A DNA stretch of 63,698 nucleotides, taken from Candidatus Daviesbacteria bacterium. Its GTDB lineage: Bacteria; Patescibacteriota; Microgenomatia; Daviesbacterales; UBA10151. Shown one piece after another: positions 6,019 through 44,261 of the stretch. Within the stretch, counting starts at the first letter, position 1. Every line of letters begins with the position of its first letter. The notes beneath the pieces are model-generated. The model worked only from the letters and a program-made list of their open reading frames with translations, did no database searches and was not told where the DNA came from. The stretch is taken from positions 1-63,698 of the forward strand of contig JAUSHE010000024.1 in the NCBI GenBank assembly GCA_030648435.1. Reading direction: 5' to 3'. Both the position numbers and the translations under genes were made by a program.

Positions 6019-7190
6019 GTCATTTCTCTAAAATTTTTAAACAAACGGGGTGGCAGATGGCGGGGAAGATTGTCACGTCTGTCTCTACTTTTATTATTCT
6101 CGGACTGGTGGCGAGAAATTATGGCACAAGCGGAACGGGAATTTTTACACTGGCACTAACCTACTTGGCCATATTTTATATGTTGGCGGATTTTGGCTTT
6201 AATGCTCATGTTTTAAAGAAGAGAGACATTGAGTGGAATAAATTACTGGGAGCAAGATTAATTTGGTCCGGGTTATTGGTAATTTTAGCAGTTGGACTAC
6301 TGCCATTTTTGCCGTTTACTACCCCTCTTTTTTCAAGCGCTGTATTATTTGGAGCTTTGGCAATTTTTGGATCTTCTGTTTTTACAACCTGCAATTTAAT
6401 ATTTCAAAAGAAATTGCGGTATGACCTGTCGGTGTTGGCATCAAGCATTGGCACATTAGTGAGTTTGGCAGTTTTTTATTTTCTGGTTTTACAAAAATTA
6501 CCAGTCTCTTTTTTATTACTTGCTCATTTCTTTGGTTGGCTGGTAATAGCTTTATCAGCACTGTTTTTACTTCGTAGACTTATCTTAAAAATAATTCCGA
6601 TATTCGATCTACGATATACGATTAACCTATTCAAGTCTTCCTGGCCCATTGCCGCCACACTTGCCTTAAATGTCATTTATTTCCGGGCTGATTCATTTAT
6701 GATTGCTTATTTCAAAAATGCTGCTGATGTTGGAGTTTACAATATTGCCTACTCTATTTTTCAAACTGCGTTGGTTCTGCCAACATTTATTATGAATGCT
6801 TATTATCCTTTGATGCTTAAATCTCTGGAAAAAATTAAACTTATTGGTTCGGGACTCCTGGGTTTATCCCTGGCAGGTACTATTTTTACAATTATTTTTT
6901 CCCCTATTATGATTCGAATTTTAACCGGAGGGGGATTTGAAGGTTCTGTCCAAAGCCTGCAGATTTTATCCCTAGGGTTTCCTGCCTATTTTTTATCGGC
7001 ACTACTGATGTGGGTTCTGATAACCAGGGGGCAGTACAAAAAAATGCTTATAATTTACACATCCGGGCTCGTTTTTAATTTTGTGCTTAATATAATTTAT
7101 ATACCGCAGTATTCCTATATTGCCGCATCCTGGACAACAGTTATTTCCGAGTACTTGATTTTAATCCTACAAATCCTTATCCTAAGATAA
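6015..7190 (+). CDS. polysaccharide flippase (MOP/Wzx family)
   Basis: 12-14 TM protein, ATGA overlap with the preceding ligase-like gene. Confidence 0.6.
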   Translation: MSHFSKIFKQTGWQMAGKIVTSVSTFIILGLVARNYGTSGTGIFTLALTYLAIFYMLADFGFNAHVLKKRDIEWNKLLGARLIWSGLLVILAVGLLPFLPFTTPLFSSAVLFGALAIFGSSVFTTCNLIFQKKLRYDLSVLASSIGTLVSLAVFYFLVLQKLPVSFLLLAHFFGWLVIALSALFLLRRLILKIIPIFDLRYTINLFKSSWPIAATLALNVIYFRADSFMIAYFKNAADVGVYNIAYSIFQTALVLPTFIMNAYYPLMLKSLEKIKLIGSGLLGLSLAGTIFTIIFSPIMIRILTGGGFEGSVQSLQILSLGFPAYFLSALLMWVLITRGQYKKMLIIYTSGLVFNFVLNIIYIPQYSYIAASWTTVISEYLILILQILILR

Positions 7191-7679: not shown

Positions 7680-10469
7680 GTGGACGAATCAGACGAACCT
7701 ATCATTAATAAAAATAGTATTTTGCTTTCGCGAAACAAGCCCGTTGCTTTGGTCGTGGGGGCTGCGGGATTTTTAGGCTCTCATTTAGTTGATCAGCTTC
7801 TCGATAAAGATATTCAGGTAATTGGAGTAGATAGCAAAAAAGAGAACTTAAGGGAAGCTGCCGGAAACCGCAATTTTCATCTAATTTTAGAATCTGCCAA
7901 AAATTTAAACTTTCAGCCGGAGCGGCTTGATTACCTGTTTCTTATCGACTCCGGTCAGGAAGATCTGGAGAAAATTCTTGCAATATTTAAGAAGACTAAA
8001 TGCCGCTGCCTGCTTGTGTCGTCAATTGATCTTTATGATAAGGAAAACTTAAATGAAAGCTTAAAAAGAACGAAGCAAATGGAAGCAAAAATTGCAGGGT
8101 TTGCAGCTGATTTTAGCTTAAATGCCCGGGTTCTAAGACTGGGCTCTGTTTTTGGGCCCAGAATGAATTTTGACGGTCATGATCCGCTTATTAAACTGCT
8201 AAAGCAGTCCTTAACGGGCAAGCTGCAGCAGGATGTTTCCCTGGAGTTTTCCACAAGGGCTTTATTTGTGGAAGATGCTGTCGAGCTGATGATTAAAACA
8301 ATTTTTGCCGGTTCAACATCACAGAAAATCTTTGACGGTGTCAGCCCGAAACCCCTCAAGGTGGCGGAAATTAAGCAAGTACTGCTGGATCCCGTTTGGT
8401 ATGAAAGCCGGGATTTTGTTTTTTCTGAACTGCCGCCTTGGCAAACACCTAACTTAGAAAAAACTATTAAATTTTTAAACTGGCGTCCCAAAGTCAAGAT
8501 GTTTTCAGCTTTAAGGCAGACGCTCAGGTTTTTCAAGGATAACGAAATAGAAATACCTGATAAAAAGGAGGAAGATGTTGAGTTACCTCAGGAAAAGAAA
8601 ACAGAGTTGGAAGAGTTTAGAAAAGAGGATAGGAGAGCTCACGATCCTAAATTTAAGATACCTTTTTCAAAAATATATTTATCTATTTTAATTGCTTTGG
8701 TGACATATGCGCTGATTTGGCCCGTGCTGATTTTCGGGTGGGGAGTTTTTACCTTCAAATCTGGACTTGAGTCGGCAATGGTAAATTTACAAAAAGGAGA
8801 GTTTGAAAAAAGTTTGCAAAATATAGACAGAGCCAGCTCCGGTGTTCAGGCAGTAAAGTCTATAAGCGGGTTAGGCGTAAATCAGTTAGAAGTTATGCGG
8901 AAGCTAACTAATATATCTGATTTCTGGTTGGGTTCAGCAAAAAGTACTATTGTGGGGGCCCAGCAGCTTTTGCTGGGTATGAAGGCAGTGACAGGGGAGT
9001 TGTCTGCATCTCCCGCTGCTTATTTTAGCTCAGCTCAGGTGGAGTTAAGCTCAGCCGGTAATGCGTTCTCAAGGGCAGACGCACTTTTAGGGAGCAACGA
9101 TTTTGAAAAGGGCATGCCGGGTGCGGTAGCAGGGGAGATCAATAAATTGGCAGGCAAGCTGTCTCTTTACCGGAATTTCATCGGTAGAGTTAGGTCTTTA
9201 TCTGTGCTGCTACCAAATCTGGTTGCAGTGGACGGCAGCAAAAATTATCTTATTTTACTCCAGAACAATATGGAACTCCGGCCGGCCGGTGGTTTCATTG
9301 GCTCTTTTGCAAAAATTTCTTTTGAAGGGGGGAAATTAAAGAAATTAACAGTAAATGATATTTATGCAATTGATGGGGCTCTCCCGCTTCATGTCGAGCC
9401 TCCTAAAGAAATTAAAGAGGATTTAGGTCAGAAAAATTGGTATTTACGGGATTCAAATTGGGAAAGTGATTTTCCAACGAGCGCCCGGCAGGCGGAATGG
9501 TTTTATACCAAGGAAACAGGGGAGACTGTTGAGGGTGTGATAGCAATGGATGTGTCTGCTATGGAGAAGTTGCTGGAAGCGATTGGACCATTAAATCTGC
9601 CGGATTATAATGAAAAAATTACCTCAGAAAATCTTTTTGAAAAGGCAGTGTCGCATGCGGAAATGAGTTTTTTCCCCGGCTCTCAGGCGAAAAAAAGTTT
9701 TCTGACAGCTCTAGCAAATGAAGCTTTTAATAAGATCTTCTTTCTTCCGCAAAATAACTGGCCGGGAGTAATTACGGCTCTAAGTAAATCTCTGGATGAA
9801 AAACATATCAGTATTTATATAAATGACAATAAACTACTTTCTTATGCAGACTCGCTGGGATGGACGCATGCTTTTCCGAGAGCTTCCAAAAATAGTGAGA
9901 ACCAGGATTTTCTAAGTTTGGTAGAGGCAAACCTGGGAGCCAACAAGGCCAATTATTATCTGGACAGAAGCTATAATTTAGAAACTGTGGTTGGTAAGGA
10001 GGGCGAAATTAAGCACAGGCTCAGGATAAGTTACATCAACAGAAGCCCTTCAGATACTTTTCCCGGGGGAAAGTATAAAAACAGAATGCGGATATATCTG
10101 CCTTTCGGAAGTAAAATAACAAGAGTACTTTGGGGAGAAACTAACAAAACCGGCGAAATCTCCGGTTTTGTGGATTATGGCAGGGCAGGCTATTCAATTC
10201 TACTGGAGCTTAATCCAAAAGAACAGAAGACTCTGGTGCTGGATTACACGGTGCCGGTCAGTCTGAAGTTTGAAAATGGGCAAGCCGGTTATAAGTTAAA
10301 TGTGGTAAAACAGGCGGGGACCTTAAAGGATCCGTTTAATTGGACGATTACTTATCCGATTAACTATCAATTAATTTCAGACAAAACCAAAAAGATCGGC
10401 CCGCAAGAGCAAACTATTTCTACGGATTTATCGGTTGATAGAAGCTTTGAGGTAGAGTTTAAAAAGTGA
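7680..10469 (+). CDS. fusion protein: NAD-dependent epimerase/dehydratase domain - TM - DUF4012 domain
   Basis: Rossmann VVGAAGFLGSHLVDQLL at the N-terminus. TM LSILIALVTYALIWPVLIFGWGVF. DUF4012-like LLQNNMELRPAGGFIGSFA. Confidence 0.7.
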   Translation: MDESDEPIINKNSILLSRNKPVALVVGAAGFLGSHLVDQLLDKDIQVIGVDSKKENLREAAGNRNFHLILESAKNLNFQPERLDYLFLIDSGQEDLEKILAIFKKTKCRCLLVSSIDLYDKENLNESLKRTKQMEAKIAGFAADFSLNARVLRLGSVFGPRMNFDGHDPLIKLLKQSLTGKLQQDVSLEFSTRALFVEDAVELMIKTIFAGSTSQKIFDGVSPKPLKVAEIKQVLLDPVWYESRDFVFSELPPWQTPNLEKTIKFLNWRPKVKMFSALRQTLRFFKDNEIEIPDKKEEDVELPQEKKTELEEFRKEDRRAHDPKFKIPFSKIYLSILIALVTYALIWPVLIFGWGVFTFKSGLESAMVNLQKGEFEKSLQNIDRASSGVQAVKSISGLGVNQLEVMRKLTNISDFWLGSAKSTIVGAQQLLLGMKAVTGELSASPAAYFSSAQVELSSAGNAFSRADALLGSNDFEKGMPGAVAGEINKLAGKLSLYRNFIGRVRSLSVLLPNLVAVDGSKNYLILLQNNMELRPAGGFIGSFAKISFEGGKLKKLTVNDIYAIDGALPLHVEPPKEIKEDLGQKNWYLRDSNWESDFPTSARQAEWFYTKETGETVEGVIAMDVSAMEKLLEAIGPLNLPDYNEKITSENLFEKAVSHAEMSFFPGSQAKKSFLTALANEAFNKIFFLPQNNWPGVITALSKSLDEKHISIYINDNKLLSYADSLGWTHAFPRASKNSENQDFLSLVEANLGANKANYYLDRSYNLETVVGKEGEIKHRLRISYINRSPSDTFPGGKYKNRMRIYLPFGSKITRVLWGETNKTGEISGFVDYGRAGYSILLELNPKEQKTLVLDYTVPVSLKFENGQAGYKLNVVKQAGTLKDPFNWTITYPINYQLISDKTKKIGPQEQTISTDLSVDRSFEVEFKK

Positions 10470-13452: not shown

Positions 13453-14475
13453 TTAAGTTACGAGTGCAAGGTTTGGATCAGCTTGAAGAGACAAAGGATT
13501 TTTAAGGGCTTTTTGGAAAAAGGCTGCAGAGGCTATCATGGCTCCGTTATCTGTACAAAGTTCCGGTGGTGGTACAAAGAGTCTGATAGCTGAAGACTGA
13601 CAGCTGACAGCTAATTCTGAAACCAGTTTCTGATTGGCGGCCACTCCGCCGGCGACTATTAAGTTTTTAACCTGATATTTTTCAACCGCTTGAATACTTT
13701 TTTTAACCAGAACATCAACAATAGCTTGTTGAATTGAAGCAGCAAGGTCAGCGACCTTACTTTTATCTGTTATATTAGCTACTGCTGTTTTTAAACCTGA
13801 AAAAGAGAAGTCAAAATCTTTGGAATTTATCATTGGTCTGGGTAATTTAAAAGCTTTTGGGTTACCCTCTTGTGCTAGTTTGGAAATAATAGGACCACCA
13901 GGGTAGGGCAGTCCCAGGAGCCTGGCGCATTTATCAAAGCATTCTCCTGCCGCATCATCCCGGGTTCCGCCCAGATATTTATATTTACCATGATCTGTAA
14001 ACAGAACTAAATCCGTATGCCCACCGGAAACAAGCAGGCCAATACAAGGGAAGCTCGGTACACCTTCCAGGTGGGCTTTGACTCCTGGAAGGTGAGTGGG
14101 AGTAATCCAATTAGCATAAAAATGTCCAAGCAGGTGATTAACTGGGATTAGTGGTTTATTCCAGATTAATGCCAGGGTTTTGGCAGTTTCTACCCCCACT
14201 AAAAGTGAACCTATTAGTCCGGGTCCATAGGTGACTGCAATAGCGTCAATTTCCTGTTGCCTGTGGCCTGAAGCCTGTAAACTTTCTTCTATCACCGGAA
14301 TGATTGATTTTATCTGTTCCCGTGCCGCCTGTTCAGGAATTATCCCTCCGTATTTAGCCTGCAGCAAGGCTGATGAAGCCACAATATTGGATAATATCGT
14401 TATTCGTTTATCGTTATTCGTCAAGATAGCGCAAGCTGTTTCATCGCAGGATGTTTCTATTCCCAGAATAATCAT
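13453..14475 (-). CDS. tsaD: tRNA N6-adenosine threonylcarbamoyltransferase TsaD
   Basis: GIETSCDETA, GPGLIGSLLVG, LLVSGGHT, CTDNGAMIA. Confidence 0.95.
   Translation of the reverse strand: MIILGIETSCDETACAILTNNDKRITILSNIVASSALLQAKYGGIIPEQAAREQIKSIIPVIEESLQASGHRQQEIDAIAVTYGPGLIGSLLVGVETAKTLALIWNKPLIPVNHLLGHFYANWITPTHLPGVKAHLEGVPSFPCIGLLVSGGHTDLVLFTDHGKYKYLGGTRDDAAGECFDKCARLLGLPYPGGPIISKLAQEGNPKAFKLPRPMINSKDFDFSFSGLKTAVANITDKSKVADLAASIQQAIVDVLVKKSIQAVEKYQVKNLIVAGGVAANQKLVSELAVSCQSSAIRLFVPPPELCTDNGAMIASAAFFQKALKNPLSLQADPNLALVT
13583..13617. repeat. heptamer patch (5 units) inside tsaD
   Basis: CTGATAG CTGAAGA CTGACAG CTGACAG CTAATTC. Confidence 0.6.
14061..14094. repeat. family-A 34-nt perfect hairpin element, copy 1 (inside tsaD)
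   Basis: CACCTTCCAGG TGGGCTTTGACT CCTGGAAGGTG; 11-bp stem, 12-nt loop. Confidence 0.9.
14395..14422. repeat. heptamer/14-mer patch inside the tsaD 5' region
   Basis: TATCGTT ATTCGTT TATCGTT ATTCGTC. Shares the 10-mer TCGTTTATCG with 18645-18654 and the reverse complement of 18752-18761. Confidence 0.6.
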
Positions 14476-21846: not shown

Positions 21847-22164
21847 ATGTTTAAAATTATCACTTTTGTGCCGGTTACTGATGCAGAGAAAGTAAGGATG
21901 GCTATGGGGGATGCAGGGGCAGGAGTTTTGGGAAATTACACCCATGCCAGCTTTTCTACCAAGGGTGTGGGAAGGTTTATTCCGAGTGAAGGAGCCCATC
22001 CTACGATTGGTCAAGTGGGGAAATTAGAAGAAGTAGAAGAAGAAAGGATTGAAGTAATTTGTGAGAAAGAAAATGTAACAGCTGTGGTGACAGCAATTAA
22101 AAAAGTCCATCCCTACGAAGAGGTTCCCCTGGAAATATATAATTTAGTTGAGGTCCCAAGGTAA
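21847..22164 (+). CDS. NIF3/YqfO-insert-like (PII-fold) small protein
   Basis: Pattern FVPVTDAEKVRMAMGDAGAG..GNYTHASF...G..HPTIG...EEERIEV recalls the YqfO cap domain. Confidence 0.45.
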   Translation: MFKIITFVPVTDAEKVRMAMGDAGAGVLGNYTHASFSTKGVGRFIPSEGAHPTIGQVGKLEEVEEERIEVICEKENVTAVVTAIKKVHPYEEVPLEIYNLVEVPR

Positions 22165-23064
22165 GTTAATCAGTTGGACTTCGGGGACAAGGGTGATGTC
22201 GTATTTTTCTTTGACTTTCTCTGCGTAAGTTTTAGCCAAATCATAAAAATCTTTGGCAGTCCCATTATCTTTATTTATAAATAAGTTGCCATGAATAGGT
22301 GAAATTTCTATGCCATTTAAAGATTGCCCTTTGGCTCCTACCTCTTCCAGCAATGCTCCGGCAGAAAGTTTGCCGTAGACAATTTTTTCTTGGGGGATAT
22401 TATTCAAGATTTCTTCCGGAATTTCAGAAGCAATTAAATTTTTGAAAAAACTACCCGGGCATTTAATTCCCGGGGGATATCTAACAGCTCTTTTAGATAA
22501 TACTTCTTCTGCTTCTTTTTTGAGTATGTCAGGATCACCTGGTTCCAGTTGAAAAGTTACTTCTAAGATAGGTTGCTTGGATTGTTTAAAAATGCTGTTT
22601 CTGTAACCAAAAGCACATCCAGACTTGTTTAATTGATCAACGGATACAATATGATCGGAAATTGATTGGCCATAAGCTCCGGCATTGCCATAAACTGCCC
22701 CTCCAACAGTACCGGGAATTCCGGTTAGTTTTTGTAATCCGGAAAGTCCATTTTGAATGGTGTAGTCAACAAGGTTTTGTAAAAGAGTTCCACTCTTAAC
22801 GCACACCTCGAAGGAGTCAGGGCCCACCTTCGAGGTGGACAAATCACAAATCTCATTTTTTATAACTAAGCCTTCGAATCCGTCATCACTGATTAATAAA
22901 TTACTACCTCCACCGATAATTAAATACGGCATCTGTTGGGATTTGGCATATTCTAATGCTTCTATTAACTCTTCCTCGGAAGATACAATTACAAACTTTT
23001 TAGCCGGCCCGCCTATAGATAATGTAGTTATTGTTTTTAACAAATAATTATCTTCAAATTGCAT
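22144..23064 (-). CDS. murB: UDP-N-acetylenolpyruvoylglucosamine reductase
   Basis: FAD-binding IIGGGSNLLISD, GIPGTVGGAVYGNAGAYG, SFFKN. Confidence 0.9.
   Translation of the reverse strand: MQFEDNYLLKTITTLSIGGPAKKFVIVSSEEELIEALEYAKSQQMPYLIIGGGSNLLISDDGFEGLVIKNEICDLSTSKVGPDSFEVCVKSGTLLQNLVDYTIQNGLSGLQKLTGIPGTVGGAVYGNAGAYGQSISDHIVSVDQLNKSGCAFGYRNSIFKQSKQPILEVTFQLEPGDPDILKKEAEEVLSKRAVRYPPGIKCPGSFFKNLIASEIPEEILNNIPQEKIVYGKLSAGALLEEVGAKGQSLNGIEISPIHGNLFINKDNGTAKDFYDLAKTYAEKVKEKYDITLVPEVQLINLPWDLN
22804..22837. repeat. family-A hairpin element, copy 2 (inside murB, loop inverted)
   Basis: CACCTCGAAGG AGTCAGGGCCCA CCTTCGAGGTG. Confidence 0.9.
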
Positions 23065-42896: not shown

Positions 42897-43526
42897 ATGC
42901 AAAAGGGTACTGCCCAACTTTTATTGCTTCTTACAGTAGTGCTTCTTCTTGGGGTAGGTGTATATTTTTACAAGACTTCAAAAGAAAATGATTTACAAAC
43001 TGCGAAATTAACTGTCCAAAAACCATCAGAATTTATTGACTATGTAAATAAAGATTTTGGCTTTGAATTTAAGTATTCAAAGGAGTTGCAAGTGAAGGTT
43101 GATACAGAAGAAGAATTCAATAAACGGAGTAATGGGAATTTTAGGAAGAATTTTACAGGTTATGTAGGTTATGAACCGGGGCAGGTTTTAGGGGCAGTGG
43201 CAGTTTTAGACCAAAGCGGCTCTTTTGATAATAATCCTTTTTCTGTCTGGGTATTTGATAACCCTGATGGTTTAACAGTTAATGGTTGGTTTGATAAATA
43301 TTGGTATTACCCATTTTTATGGGGAGTATTTGACTATTTGTCAAAAAGTCACATTACTCCTGATACAGAAGCTACAATTAGCGGACAACTAACAAAATAT
43401 AAAATTGTTTCCTACCAACTAAGTTCCCCAAAATATCTTTATTTATCAAAAGAGAAGAAGATGTATTTATTTAGAGTTATCGGAGAGACCGGGGACAAAA
43501 TTTTATCCGGCTTTAAATTTCTATAA
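42897..43526 (+). CDS. hypothetical exported protein
   Basis: Signal/TM AQLLLLLTVVLLLGVGVYF. Aromatic-rich body. Confidence 0.4.
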   Translation: MQKGTAQLLLLLTVVLLLGVGVYFYKTSKENDLQTAKLTVQKPSEFIDYVNKDFGFEFKYSKELQVKVDTEEEFNKRSNGNFRKNFTGYVGYEPGQVLGAVAVLDQSGSFDNNPFSVWVFDNPDGLTVNGWFDKYWYYPFLWGVFDYLSKSHITPDTEATISGQLTKYKIVSYQLSSPKYLYLSKEKKMYLFRVIGETGDKILSGFKFL

Positions 43527-44261
43527 TAAATAAATATCTACAAATCTTGCGCTCCAGCCGGCGGTCTTGGCATCTTCAAAGCCCAGATCAATGATATTTC
43601 CTTTAATTGCTCCGCCAGTATCTCCGGCAATAGCCATGCCATATCCGGGTACATAAAGTTTGGTTCTATATTTAATAACTTTTGGATCAACAGCTATCAC
43701 ACCTTTGCCTTGTCTCATGCCGATCGAAGTCCACTCATCGCAGCCGGGACAGCGTGAATCATAGTGGGTGGCATAAACCCGCATCTTCTTCCAGTATTTA
43801 ATCTCGCCGTCAGGGGTTTGTAGGGTTTTCCAGACAATTTTTGTACCCCGTAAAATCTTTTTATCTTGGGCCGGAGTTGTTTCAACAGAAATAAGTTCTC
43901 TGGAATATTCTTCACCTTGGCTCACCTCGGAGGTGGGCTTTGACTCCTCCGAGGTGGTTGCCGGTTTGGAGTAGGTTATTTTATAAATCTTAATTTTTTT
44001 GCCGTCTGTTCCTTCTTCCAAGACTTTTTCTTCTCCTGCTTCTACCTCCGGATCATCCTGATAAATTGTTTTTCTTGGTAAACTTTCTATTTCTTCCCGG
44101 AGTTTTTCGGTAAACGAGGACTCGGTAGTAATAGGTTGGTTAATAGGTAATGTTTCTGTTGGAGAAAGCGTGGAATCACCTAAAACAGTAGGAGCCTGAA
44201 AGATACTTTTGGCAAAGAAAGTAAGCGCTATTATTAAGATAATCCCAAGATATTTTTCCAT
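43521..44261 (-). CDS. G5 + 3D-domain (MltA/RlpA-like barrel) cell-wall protein
   Basis: G5-like EEGTDGKKIKIYKITY. 3D-domain ATHYDSRCPGC...IAVDPKVIKYRTKLYVPGYGMAIAGDTGGAIKG. Confidence 0.7.
   Translation of the reverse strand: MEKYLGIILIIALTFFAKSIFQAPTVLGDSTLSPTETLPINQPITTESSFTEKLREEIESLPRKTIYQDDPEVEAGEEKVLEEGTDGKKIKIYKITYSKPATTSEESKPTSEVSQGEEYSRELISVETTPAQDKKILRGTKIVWKTLQTPDGEIKYWKKMRVYATHYDSRCPGCDEWTSIGMRQGKGVIAVDPKVIKYRTKLYVPGYGMAIAGDTGGAIKGNIIDLGFEDAKTAGWSARFVDIYLL
43923..43956. repeat. family-A hairpin element, copy 3 (inside the 3D-domain gene)
   Basis: CACCTCGGAGG TGGGCTTTGACT CCTCCGAGGTG. Confidence 0.9.

What the first reader, a model, noticed from the sequence alone, without database searches (positions are those of the whole stretch)
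14061..14094. 34-nt perfect hairpin element translated inside tsaD (palindromic family A, copy 1)
CACCTTCCAGG-TGGGCTTTGACT-CCTGGAAGGTG has an 11-bp perfect stem and a 12-nt loop, and forms a GC-rich island. The same architecture recurs at 43923-43956 with an identical loop, and at 22804-22837 with the loop reverse-complemented. The central stem bases differ between copies (TTCCA, TCGGA, TCGAA), yet each copy stays perfectly self-complementary, which is compensatory change. The three copies are read in different frames and orientations: HLPGVKAHLEGV, TSEESKPTSEV and TSKVGPDSFEV. In TsaD the element sits between the LLGH motif and LLVSGGHT. That segment is about 11 residues longer than in my recollection of E. 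coli TsaD, consistent with an in-frame insertion of about 33 nt. This behaviour resembles Rickettsia palindromic elements. I am not aware of it being described for this kind of genome.
Basis: partly seen in the sequence, partly recalled or inferred. Interest (0 to 1): 0.75.

Follow-up and report, generated by a model that had tools for sequence, protein, structure and literature searches.

The report
Tiny mobile hairpins inside protein genes
The 34-base hairpin inside tsaD is one copy of a family of miniature palindromic repeats, built from paired REP sequences of the kind that flank a RAYT-type transposase in related genomes, and in these ultra-small Patescibacteria the repeats sit inside ordinary protein genes and are translated as short surface-loop inserts.

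Summary
Three perfect hairpins with an 11-bp stem and a 12-nt loop lie at 14061-14094, 22804-22837 and 43923-43956, inside tsaD, murB and a G5/3D-domain gene. They are the longest perfect hairpins in the window.

A truncated genome scan found at least 110 further 34-nt copies in 50 MAGs, mostly Ca. Daviesbacteria and Curtissbacteria and other Microgenomates. The copies sit in at least 55 unrelated gene families. They are read in five of six frames and never in the frame that carries TGA. The central stem triplet is complementary in 111 of 118 matches.

Each arm, CACCT-NNN-AGGTG, is itself a 13-nt palindrome. The same 13-mers flank IS200-like Y1 (HUH) transposase genes whose closest solved structure is the E. 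coli REP-associated tyrosine transposase (RAYT).

The elements are therefore best read as REP doublets (REPIN-like) of a RAYT clade in Patescibacteria. They differ from classical REPINs in being miniaturised, lacking a GTAG tag, and being no rarer inside genes than random placement predicts.

Orthologues show empty, solo-arm and doublet states at the same protein loops. The TsaD insert is modelled as a low-confidence coil.

The link to a transposase is new. Mobilisation by the RAYT is inferred, and the window itself holds no RAYT.

The parts
14061..14094 (+). 34-nt REP doublet (hairpin), copy 1. The arms are CACCTTCCAGGTG (14061-14073) and CTCCTGGAAGGTG (14082-14094), with the spacer GGCTTTGA between them. 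It is translated on the minus strand as HLPGVKAHLEGV, TsaD residues 128-139.
   Evidence: It falls in an 11-12-residue gap against solved TsaD structures. Close orthologues have an empty site. The AF2 model shows coil with pLDDT below 50 at residues 132-134.
22804..22837 (-). 34-nt REP doublet, copy 2. The loop lies in the opposite orientation on the + strand and carries TT->CC. The central triplets are CGA/TCG. It is translated as TSKVGPDSFEV in MurB.
   Evidence: The same element sits at the same MurB site in four other genomes. MurB orthologues show empty and solo-arm states at this site.
43923..43956 (+). 34-nt REP doublet, copy 3. The central triplets are CGG/CCG. It is translated as TSEESKPTSEV inside the G5 domain of a G5+3D protein.
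   Evidence: Three other genomes have the element at the same site, two with the loop flipped and one with the triplets swapped.
57895..57913 (.). Solo REP, TCCCACCTCCGAGGTGGGA, with an 8-bp stem and a 3-nt loop. It is intergenic, between a HAD-type hydrolase gene and a Nudix-like gene.
   Evidence: and 72 (-7.9 kcal/mol, z -4.6). It is of the same type as the REPs flanking the RAYT in L235.
13453..14475 (-). Host gene tsaD (340 aa).
   Evidence: Pfam PF00814, E 4e-92. Best PDB match 8iey, E 4e-84.
22144..23064 (-). Host gene murB (306 aa).
   Evidence: Pfam FAD_binding_4 plus MurB_C. PDB MurB matches.
43521..44261 (-). Host gene encoding a G5 + 3D domain protein (246 aa).
   Evidence: Pfam G5 covers residues 55-141 against 72 profile positions, and a 3D domain is also matched.

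Best explanation
The hairpin is a REP doublet, that is, a REPIN-like element. It consists of two copies of a 13-nt mini-palindrome, CACCT-NNN-AGGTG, in inverted orientation and separated by an 8-nt spacer, so that one DNA strand folds into a stem of 11-13 bp.

The same 13-mers flank the genes of a clade of IS200-like Y1/HUH transposases in Daviesbacteria and other Patescibacteria. These enzymes are most similar to REP-associated tyrosine transposases (RAYTs).

The proposed mechanism is inferred by analogy with E. coli TnpA-REP and IS200/IS605 elements. The RAYT would recognise the folded repeat on single-stranded DNA, cut it, and paste doublets elsewhere without a target-site duplication.

These genomes are about 91% open reading frame, so most insertions land in genes. 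The survivors are those that add a whole number of codons (a net gain of 33 nt), fall in a stop-free frame, and sit in a tolerant surface loop. There they are translated as inserts of about 11 residues.

The perfect complementarity of the variable triplet would follow from the doublet's origin as an inverted duplication, and from a requirement for a hairpin if the element is to be copied.

What is shown: the anatomy, the family, its location inside genes and its translation, presence/absence among orthologues, and the physical association of the arms with RAYT genes. What is inferred: that the RAYT moves the doublets, and that the genome this window comes from has such a RAYT.
For: Family and covariation:
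- 111 of 118 matches have complementary central triplets, in 11 different ordered pairs.
- A control scan of viral contigs gave 36 two-arm matches, none with complementary triplets.

Translation:
- 99 of 113 copies lie in open frames of at least 100 codons.
- The frame counts are A0 29, S1 29, A1 25, A2 13, S2 3 and S0 0. S0 is the only frame with a stop, the TGA in the loop.
- The copies sit in at least 55 host-gene clusters.
- 132 of 134 doublets have a length of 1 mod 3.

Insertion:
- Empty sites are seen in orthologues of TsaD, MurB and many other hosts.
- Comparison of the window with the empty orthologue L240 fits a net gain of 33 nt.
- No target-site duplication is detectable.

Conservation:
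- The element is identical or differs by 2 nt in TsaD orthologues that share only 70-72% protein identity and were fetched by protein, not by the pattern.
- An identical 34-mer occurs in host proteins that are 29-78% identical to each other.

Link to a RAYT:
- L138 5484-6131 is a Y1_Tnp protein at 29.9 bits, above the gathering threshold of 23.
- Its best NCBIfam family is REP_Tyr_transpos, E 3e-11.
- It is flanked by CACCTCGGAGGTG on one side and CACCTCCGAGGTG on the other.
- Of 80 homologues from metagenomes, 17 have exact arms on both flanks and 7 on one flank. 41 of the 48 arms in 411 kb lie in the 5% of sequence that flanks these genes. 39 loci share a palindrome of the same 5+3+5 design on both flanks.
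- All four Daviesbacteria homologues that were looked up are flanked in the same way.
- The AF2 model of the protein matches 4ER8, the E. coli RAYT bound to a REP, best (E 8e-6), followed by the IS608 and ISDra2 transposases. A profile search of PDB sequences also ranks 4ER8 first, weakly at E 0.03.

Published REPINs are REP doublets that form hairpins, with common compensatory changes and adjacent RAYT genes (PMC3116915).
Against: - No RAYT gene is present in the 63.7-kb window. The rest of that genome could not be examined, so co-occurrence in this organism is not shown.
- The NCBIfam RAYT match, at 43 bits, is well below the equivalog cut-off of 80. The protein is a divergent relative, not a certified RAYT.
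- The arms carry no conserved 5' GTAG or CGTC tetranucleotide. In E. coli that tag is required for binding and cleavage (PMC3479197).
- In the one genome where a cognate RAYT and doublets were seen together (JACPKP01), the triplets flanking the RAYT are CGG/CCG while the two recovered doublets have TCC/GGA.
- No orientation bias relative to local GC skew was detected (44 against 62, p 0.10). A lagging-strand single-strand mechanism might predict such a bias.
- Repeated occupancy of the same loops in different frames could also reflect old insertions that were later remodelled, rather than ongoing transposition.
- Conservation measured on the pattern-retrieved copies is inflated, because 23 of the 34 positions were fixed by the search pattern.
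Confidence: 0.75

Rival explanations
1. The element is a selfish palindrome that spreads or is maintained without any RAYT. Candidate routes are template switching or snap-back synthesis during replication, gene conversion among copies, or a different and unidentified transposase. On this reading the resemblance of its arms to RAYT-flanking REPs reflects shared ancestry only.
For: There is no RAYT in the window. There is no GTAG-type guide next to the doublets. The triplets of doublets and of RAYT-flanking arms differ in the one genome where both were seen. Template-switch 'correction' of quasi-palindromes would by itself generate perfect arms. The loop flip and the triplet swap seen at one orthologous site fit recombination or template switching within the palindrome.
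Against: 41 of 48 exact arms in 411 kb of unselected RAYT loci sit directly beside the transposase gene. That pattern is the defining signature of a REP-RAYT pair. The element keeps an identical sequence across host proteins only 29% identical to each other, which suggests recognition by a conserved factor acting in trans.
Confidence: 0.13
2. The hairpin is a host-selected structural signal in DNA or mRNA, for example a pause site, an RNase site, a protein-binding site or a recombination site. On this reading it is kept inside genes for a cellular function, and mobility is incidental or extinct.
For: The nucleotide sequence is far better conserved than its coding flanks: 97-100% against about 66-68% at the MurB site and the second TsaD site (subject to the ascertainment caveat). 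Some solo arms lie between -35-like and -10-like hexamers upstream of the RAYT gene, so the 13-mer may also be a protein-binding operator. The base pair just outside the stem is avoided (7 of 111 against 32 expected), which points to constraint on stem length.
Against: The copies occur in at least 55 unrelated genes, with no common position or functional class. They occur in both orientations relative to transcription. They are present or absent among close orthologues of essential genes. Only Watson-Crick covariation is seen, with almost no G-T intermediates, which argues for a DNA-level or two-strand constraint rather than an RNA one. No Rfam family matches anywhere in the window.
Confidence: 0.09
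3. The segment is a protein-level motif, for example a pair of histidines (HLxG...HLxG) next to the metal-binding HxxxH of TsaD, and the hairpin is a by-product.
For: In TsaD the insert follows the HLLGH metal-binding motif and adds two histidines. The HLPG...HLEGV peptide recurs in several TsaD orthologues.
Against: The same DNA is read as TSxVGxDSxEV, TSxESKPTSEV, SPSRSQSPPGRW and PPRRWALTPSRC in other proteins. Close TsaD orthologues lack the insert entirely. The insert is modelled as a low-confidence coil.
Confidence: 0.01

Closest known systems
REPIN-RAYT systems: REP doublets forming hairpins together with REP-associated tyrosine transposases, as in Pseudomonas fluorescens SBW25 and E. 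coli (PMC3116915, PMC3479197, PMC5581495)
   Same: Both have two inverted REPs forming one long hairpin, with compensatory changes across the stem. In both, the transposase gene is flanked by the same repeats. The enzyme has the HUH/Y1 fold and matches 4ER8 best. Solo REPs occur alongside doublets, and there is no target-site duplication.
   Different: The REP here is only 13 nt and the doublet 34 nt, against published REPs of 20-40 bp and P. fluorescens doublets spaced 71 or 110 bp apart. There is no GTAG or CGTC tag. About 88% of copies are inside ORFs, which matches random placement, whereas classical REPINs are confined to extragenic space. The host is Patescibacteria/CPR. The enzyme is about 215 aa and scores below the NCBIfam RAYT cut-off.
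Rickettsia palindromic elements (RPEs)
   Same: Both are palindromic repeats inserted in frame into many unrelated and often essential genes. Both are translated and are thought to be tolerated at protein surfaces. Both occur in a small, gene-dense genome.
   Different: RPEs are about 100-150 bp (PMC10969869), against 34 nt here. They have no established transposase. They occur in a different phylum, and they share neither length nor consensus with this family.
Intragenic GTAG/CGTC REPs of Opitutus terrae, Rickettsia conorii and other species (Di Nocera et al. 2013, PMC3733652)
   Same: In both cases REP monomers and dimers lie within ORFs and encode extra residues. In both, some families are linked to RAYTs.
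   Different: In those genomes the intragenic copies are a minority of a mainly extragenic family, and the repeats carry a tetranucleotide tag. Here intragenic copies are the rule and no tag is seen.
Very small dispersed repeats (SDR) of cyanobacteria
   Same: Both are mobile-looking hairpin repeats of a few tens of nucleotides that can sit within genes.
   Different: No RAYT association is known to me for the SDRs. The sequences and hosts differ.
Mitochondrial GC-cluster or 'byp' hairpins in yeast protein genes (recalled from memory)
   Same: Both are short GC-rich palindromes inserted in coding sequence.
   Different: The mitochondrial elements are skipped by the ribosome. The elements here are translated, because the one frame with a stop codon is never used.

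Membership tests
REP/REPIN-RAYT system | A Y1 (HUH) transposase of the RAYT type is encoded in the lineage. | tested here: met
   L138 5484-6131 matches Pfam Y1_Tnp at 29.9 bits, above the threshold of 23. It has HUH (PNHFH) and Y (RYIHLNP) motifs. Its best NCBIfam family is REP_Tyr_transpos, E 3e-11, but below the equivalog cut-off. Its best structural match is 4ER8, the RAYT-REP complex, E 8e-6. Thousands of homologues exist, and the closest are labelled Daviesbacteria, Microgenomates or Patescibacteria.
REP/REPIN-RAYT system | The transposase gene is flanked by copies of the same repeat that is dispersed in the genome. | tested here: met
   L138 has CACCTCGGAGGTG on one flank and CACCTCCGAGGTG on the other. 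Of 80 metagenomic homologues, 17 have exact arms on both flanks and 7 on one. The four Daviesbacteria homologues looked up (loci L231-L238) are all flanked.
REP/REPIN-RAYT system | The dispersed unit is a pair of inverted REPs that folds into a hairpin, with compensatory change. | tested here: met
   Anatomy. 111 of 118 matches have complementary triplets, in 11 ordered pairs. Folding z-scores are -4.0 to -4.5.
REP/REPIN-RAYT system | The repeats are over-represented relative to chance. | tested here: met
   3 matches against 0.03 expected in the window. 162 exact arms against 0.5 expected in 941 kb of loci, although those loci were selected by the pattern.
REP/REPIN-RAYT system | The repeats are located in extragenic space. 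| tested here: not met
   99 of 113 copies (88%) lie in open frames of at least 100 codons. 91% of all bases in the same loci meet that criterion.
REP/REPIN-RAYT system | A conserved 5' tetranucleotide (GTAG or CGTC) sits at the foot of the hairpin. | tested here: not met
   The bases flanking 111 copies show no conserved tetranucleotide. The arms begin with CACC. RAYT-flanking copies are preceded by TGTTA or TGTAA, which in some cases is part of a longer stem.
REP/REPIN-RAYT system | The cognate RAYT is present in the same genome as the dispersed copies. | tested here: inconclusive
   This is met for Daviesbacteria JACPKP01, where L138 holds both and L109 holds a doublet. The window has no RAYT, and its other contigs could not be reached.
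REP/REPIN-RAYT system | The RAYT binds and cleaves the repeat, or mobility has been demonstrated. | not testable with these tools
   This needs biochemistry or population sequencing.
Rickettsia palindromic elements (RPE) | Membership of the Rickettsia RPE consensus families of about 100-150 bp. | tested here: not met
   The element is 34 nt. The copies found are in Patescibacteria MAGs.
Rickettsia palindromic elements (RPE) | In-frame, translated insertion into unrelated ORFs at tolerant sites. | tested here: met
   This is a shared behaviour and does not establish membership.
MITE (TIR element moved by a DDE transposase) | A target-site duplication flanks the element. | tested here: not met
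   Direct repeats of 1-4 nt at the flanks are not clearly above shuffled expectation. For k=2 there are 18 against 12.2 +/- 2.9, and for k=3 there is 1 against 2.3.

The most novel reading that the evidence does not exclude
This may be a REPIN lineage that has adapted to living inside genes. Three features would reflect that adaptation:
- Its unit length is fixed so that every insertion adds whole codons (33 nt net, with 132 of 134 doublets at 1 mod 3).
- It is stop-free in five frames.
- It repeatedly re-occupies the same protein loops, possibly by homing to hairpins already resident there.

If so, a domesticated RAYT would be continuously remodelling surface loops of essential proteins such as TsaD and MurB across a whole class of CPR bacteria.
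Probability: 0.3. Interest if true: 0.8.

Novelty: new variant of a known kind. Interest (0 to 1): 0.6.

Why it matters
REPINs and their RAYT transposases have been described mainly in Proteobacteria, as strictly extragenic residents that are inherited vertically for long periods. This finding matters for four reasons.

- It extends the system to the Candidate Phyla Radiation. My literature searches found nothing on it there.
- It shows what happens when such elements live in a genome with almost no intergenic space. They persist inside essential genes as translated inserts of about 11 residues.
- It explains part of the length variation and the odd low-complexity loops in Patescibacteria proteins. 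It also gives annotators a simple signature to recognise, such as HLxGVKAHLxGV or TSxVGxDSxEV.
- The very small substrate, a 13-nt arm, together with a protein of about 215 aa, makes a compact pair for testing how HUH enzymes recognise hairpins without a GTAG guide.

Tried and rejected
- Phage origin. A scan of viral contigs with the general two-arm pattern gave 34 loci, none with complementary triplets.
- Known RNA family. There is no Rfam match at gathering thresholds anywhere in the window, and no tRNA gene.
- Target-site duplication or MITE. No flanking direct repeat is clearly above shuffled expectation; only the 2-nt class shows a slight excess.
- Strand bias relative to local GC skew, as a test of lagging-strand targeting. 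The result was 44 against 62, not significant.
- Exact insertion boundaries. Most filled and empty pairs are too diverged in the loop to align. Only the window-L240 pair was informative.
- Source of the window. The window's TsaD is not in the contig index, so no other contigs of this genome could be examined.
- Sequence search of the RAYT against PDB. A single-sequence search found nothing. A profile search and a structure search were needed.
- Literature. Searches for the element's DNA or peptides, and for RAYT, REPIN or palindromic elements in CPR, found nothing relevant. The 16-mer hits were to an unrelated human primer.
- Conservation contrast. The element-against-flank identities are partly inflated by the search pattern and by ungapped flanks. 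Only the MurB site, the second TsaD site and the protein-fetched loci are reliable.
Full report
**Observation.** The window carries CACCTTCCAGG-TGGGCTTTGACT-CCTGGAAGGTG at 14061-14094. Sister copies lie at 43923-43956, with the same loop, and at 22804-22837, where the loop is inverted and carries two substitutions. The degenerate pattern matches three times against 0.03 expected. These are the three longest perfect hairpins in the window. As single-stranded DNA they fold at -12 to -15 kcal/mol, with z-scores near -4. All three lie in minus-strand ORFs: TsaD, MurB and a G5+3D-domain protein. The window has about 39% G+C and the element about 59%. Solved TsaD structures align with an 11-12-residue gap exactly at HLPGVKAHLEG(V).

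**Finer anatomy.** Each arm extends to a 13-mer, CACCT-NNN-AGGTG, which is itself an interrupted palindrome. In the 34-nt family one arm reads CTCCT instead of CACCT. A fourth, single-arm copy is intergenic at 57895-57913, TCCCACCTCCGAGGTGGGA.

**Family and distribution.**
- One scan of 185,579 species-representative genomes used the pattern CACCTNNNAGGTGGGC-N(0-20)-CTCCTNNNAGGTG.
- The 34-nt form accounts for 110 copies in 50 assemblies. These are labelled Daviesbacteria (44), Curtissbacteria (11), Gottesmanbacteria, Levyibacteriota, Microgenomates and 'Patescibacteria group'. A further 43 copies are in third-party MAGs titled 'uncultured Gammaproteobacteria', whose genes are Daviesbacteria-like.
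- Of 118 matches, 111 have perfectly complementary central triplets, in 11 ordered pairs. The commonest are CGA/TCG (35), CCG/CGG (28), TCC/GGA (19), GGA/TCC (11) and CGG/CCG (7).
- In a control scan of viral contigs, none of 36 two-arm matches had complementary triplets.
- The loop is GGGC-[TTTGA, TCTGA, CCTGA or CTTGA]-CTCC.

**The elements are inside genes and are translated.**
- 99 of 113 copies lie in open frames of at least 100 codons. 91% of all bases in those loci meet the same criterion, so the elements neither avoid nor prefer genes.
- Five of the six frames are used. These are HLxGVKAHLxGV (29), TSxVGxDSxEV (29), TSxESKPTSEV (25), SPSRSQSPPGRW (13) and PPRRWALTPSRC (3).
- The sixth frame, which contains the loop's TGA, is never used. 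The chance of that is (5/6)^99 if copies are treated as independent, and still about 4e-5 if only the 55 host clusters are counted.
- The hosts fall into at least 55 unrelated clusters.
- Doublet lengths are 34, 37, 40, 43, 49, 52, 55 or 64 nt in 132 of 134 cases, that is, 1 mod 3.

**Insertion and presence/absence.**
- TsaD. Among Patescibacteria TsaD orthologues, the stretch between HLxGHFYANWI and FPCIGLLVSGGHT takes several forms. It is short in many, including the window's closest relatives at 77-78% identity. It carries HLPGV..AHLEGV or HLRGE..HLGGE (the CCG/CGG stem variant) in others. It carries unrelated palindrome-like peptides in others again.
- TsaD orthologues fetched by protein. 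Two such orthologues, at 70-72% identity, hold the same hairpin with an identical stem. One of them has a second doublet, 40 nt long, elsewhere in TsaD.
- Empty TsaD sites. DNA of three close orthologues shows two empty sites and one solo REP, ATATCACACCCCGGGGGTGTGATAT, at the same place. The window-L240 comparison reads ACTC|TACC against ACT-CACCT...AGGTG-TACC, a net gain of 33 nt.
- Both outermost bases, C1 and G34, belong to the conserved element. One terminal base is therefore apparently shared with the target.
- MurB. Orthologues show the same range of states: empty, solo-arm-like (SHLGGV, SHPGGV), doublets in three frames, and nested inserts.
- Other hosts. Many show empty sites, usually with gaps of 11-13 residues. 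The window itself is empty at sites that are filled elsewhere.
- Frame differences. In one host gene the identical 34-mer sits in the same loop in four genomes but is read in different frames, in proteins 29-78% identical to each other.
- G5/3D site. The loop occurs in both orientations, and the triplets are swapped independently of the loop.
- Flanks. There is no target-site duplication. The base pair just outside the stem is complementary in only 7 of 111 copies against 32 expected. This last point is unexplained.

**Structure.** An AlphaFold2 model of the window's TsaD has a mean pLDDT of 88. It places residues 128-139 in a coil between helix 114-123 and strand 144-149, and pLDDT falls below 50 at residues 132-134. 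This fits a surface loop.

**Link to a transposase.**
- While listing solitary arms, I found two that bracket an ORF in a Daviesbacteria locus (L138 5484-6131). The flanks read ATAACTTGTTA-CACCTCGGAGGTG-TGATATA upstream and ATAACTTGTTA-CACCTCCGAGGTG-TGATATA downstream.
- The ORF is an IS200-like Y1 transposase by Pfam, above threshold. Its best NCBIfam family is REP-associated tyrosine transposase, although the score is below the equivalog cut-off. It has PNHFH and RYIHLNP motifs.
- Its AlphaFold2 model (pLDDT 84.5) matches 4ER8, the E. coli RAYT bound to a REP hairpin, best (E 8e-6), ahead of the IS608 and ISDra2 transposases. A profile search of PDB sequences also ranks 4ER8 first, weakly at E 0.03.
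- The family is large. The closest members are annotated as transposases of Daviesbacteria, Microgenomates or Patescibacteria.
- In 80 homologous loci fetched from metagenomes by protein similarity alone, 17 have exact CACCT-NNN-AGGTG arms on both flanks and 7 on one. 41 of the 48 exact arms in 411 kb lie in the 5% of sequence flanking these genes. 39 loci share a 5+3+5 mini-palindrome with the same half-site on both flanks.
- All four Daviesbacteria homologues that were looked up individually are flanked in the same way, some by longer hairpins such as TGTAACACCTCCGAGGTGTTACA.
- A second, 40%-identical RAYT in a Curtissbacteria locus has a different REP at both flanks and twice inside its own ORF. 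This shows that RAYT-REP pairs have diversified in this group.

**Interpretation.** The anatomy matches the published definition of REPINs: two inverted REPs forming one hairpin, compensatory change, solo REPs alongside doublets, and the same repeats flanking a RAYT-type gene (PMC3116915). The likely mechanism is that of HUH/Y1 enzymes acting on folded single-stranded DNA (PMC3479197). That step is inferred, not shown.

Three defining features of classical REPs are not met:
- the copies are not extragenic;
- there is no GTAG or CGTC tag;
- the sizes are much smaller.

The window has no RAYT, and its genome could not be explored further. I therefore describe the element as working like, and probably descended from, a REP/REPIN-RAYT system, as a new variant rather than a typical member.

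**Comparison with what is known.** It is not a family relationship, since RPEs are about 100-150 bp. Intragenic REPs have been reported as a minority in Opitutus, Rickettsia and other genera (PMC3733652), so a REP inside a gene is not new in itself. Searches for RAYT, REPIN or palindromic elements in CPR/Patescibacteria, and for the element's own sequences, found no description.

**Rivals.** The alternatives are a RAYT-independent palindrome spread by template switching or conversion, a host-selected DNA or RNA signal, and a protein motif. They are weighed in the structured fields. The protein-motif reading is excluded by the use of five frames. The other two remain possible at low probability.

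**Verdict.** This is a real, non-chance, dispersed family. I rate it a new variant of a known kind, of moderate to high interest.

Noticed in passing
L065:1568-2308 (Ca. Curtissbacteria MFBZ01000002.1): A second RAYT-like gene (1607-2278, 40% identical to the L138 protein) has a different REP, ACTACGAGGTCCGACCTCG, at both flanks. Two more copies lie inside its own ORF (1756, 2061), one of them read as TTRSDLV.
   Followed up: partly
TsaD orthologues P0087, P0037, P0013, P0112, P0010 (alignment A1, the loop equivalent to window 14040-14110): The same TsaD loop carries other palindrome-like peptides in other Patescibacteria, such as VIPAKAGI..SGMTD, VVPSERSSRGNL..LLPRNDN and SQTDYRL..RQKTED. This suggests that several unrelated repeat families use this site.
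   Followed up: no
flanks of the 34-nt copies in L038-L150 and the window: The bases immediately outside the stem (-1 and +35) are Watson-Crick complementary in only 7 of 111 copies, against 32 expected. The end of the stem is sharper than chance, and I have no explanation.
   Followed up: partly
L001:10723-10762, L041:204-243, L084:1276-1315, L131:2202-2241, L147:1144-1184: A second doublet family has perfect 13-bp arms and an A-rich loop of 14-15 nt (for example AAAAAAAGAAGCTA). It recurs at a second TsaD site (near residue 240 of the window protein) that is empty in the window.
   Followed up: partly
L138:5445-5480 and 6128-6165: The solo arms next to the RAYT gene lie between TTGTTA and TGATATAAT or TGATATAGG. 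This looks like a -35 and extended -10 pair with the palindrome as the spacer, so the arm may also serve as an operator for the transposase gene.
   Followed up: no
L141:1910-1973, L051:2727-2781; MurB orthologue P0299: Some doublets have another palindrome inserted in their loop (nested insertions). This hints that resident hairpins are themselves insertion targets.
   Followed up: no
L038, L039, L044, L046, L048 and about 40 other loci (CAZ*/CAY* accessions): Third-party MAGs titled 'uncultured Gammaproteobacteria' (binchicken and SRP/ERP co-assemblies) carry Daviesbacteria-like TsaD and MurB genes and the repeat family. The taxonomic label in the record title looks wrong.
   Followed up: partly
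window 10144-10171: A separate perfect 10-bp hairpin, ACAAAACCGG-CGAAATCT-CCGGTTTTGT, lies inside the ORF at 7680-10469 (peptide NKTGEISGFV). It is unrelated in sequence to the CACCT family.
   Followed up: no
L234 and L235 (GCA_043803605.1): One Daviesbacteria assembly encodes two RAYT homologues with different REP flavours, TGTAACACCT..AGGTGTTACA and TCCCACC..GGTGGGA.
   Followed up: no
window 1-63698: Cumulative GC skew rises almost monotonically across the whole contig. No tRNA gene and no Rfam family were detected in 63.7 kb.
   Followed up: no
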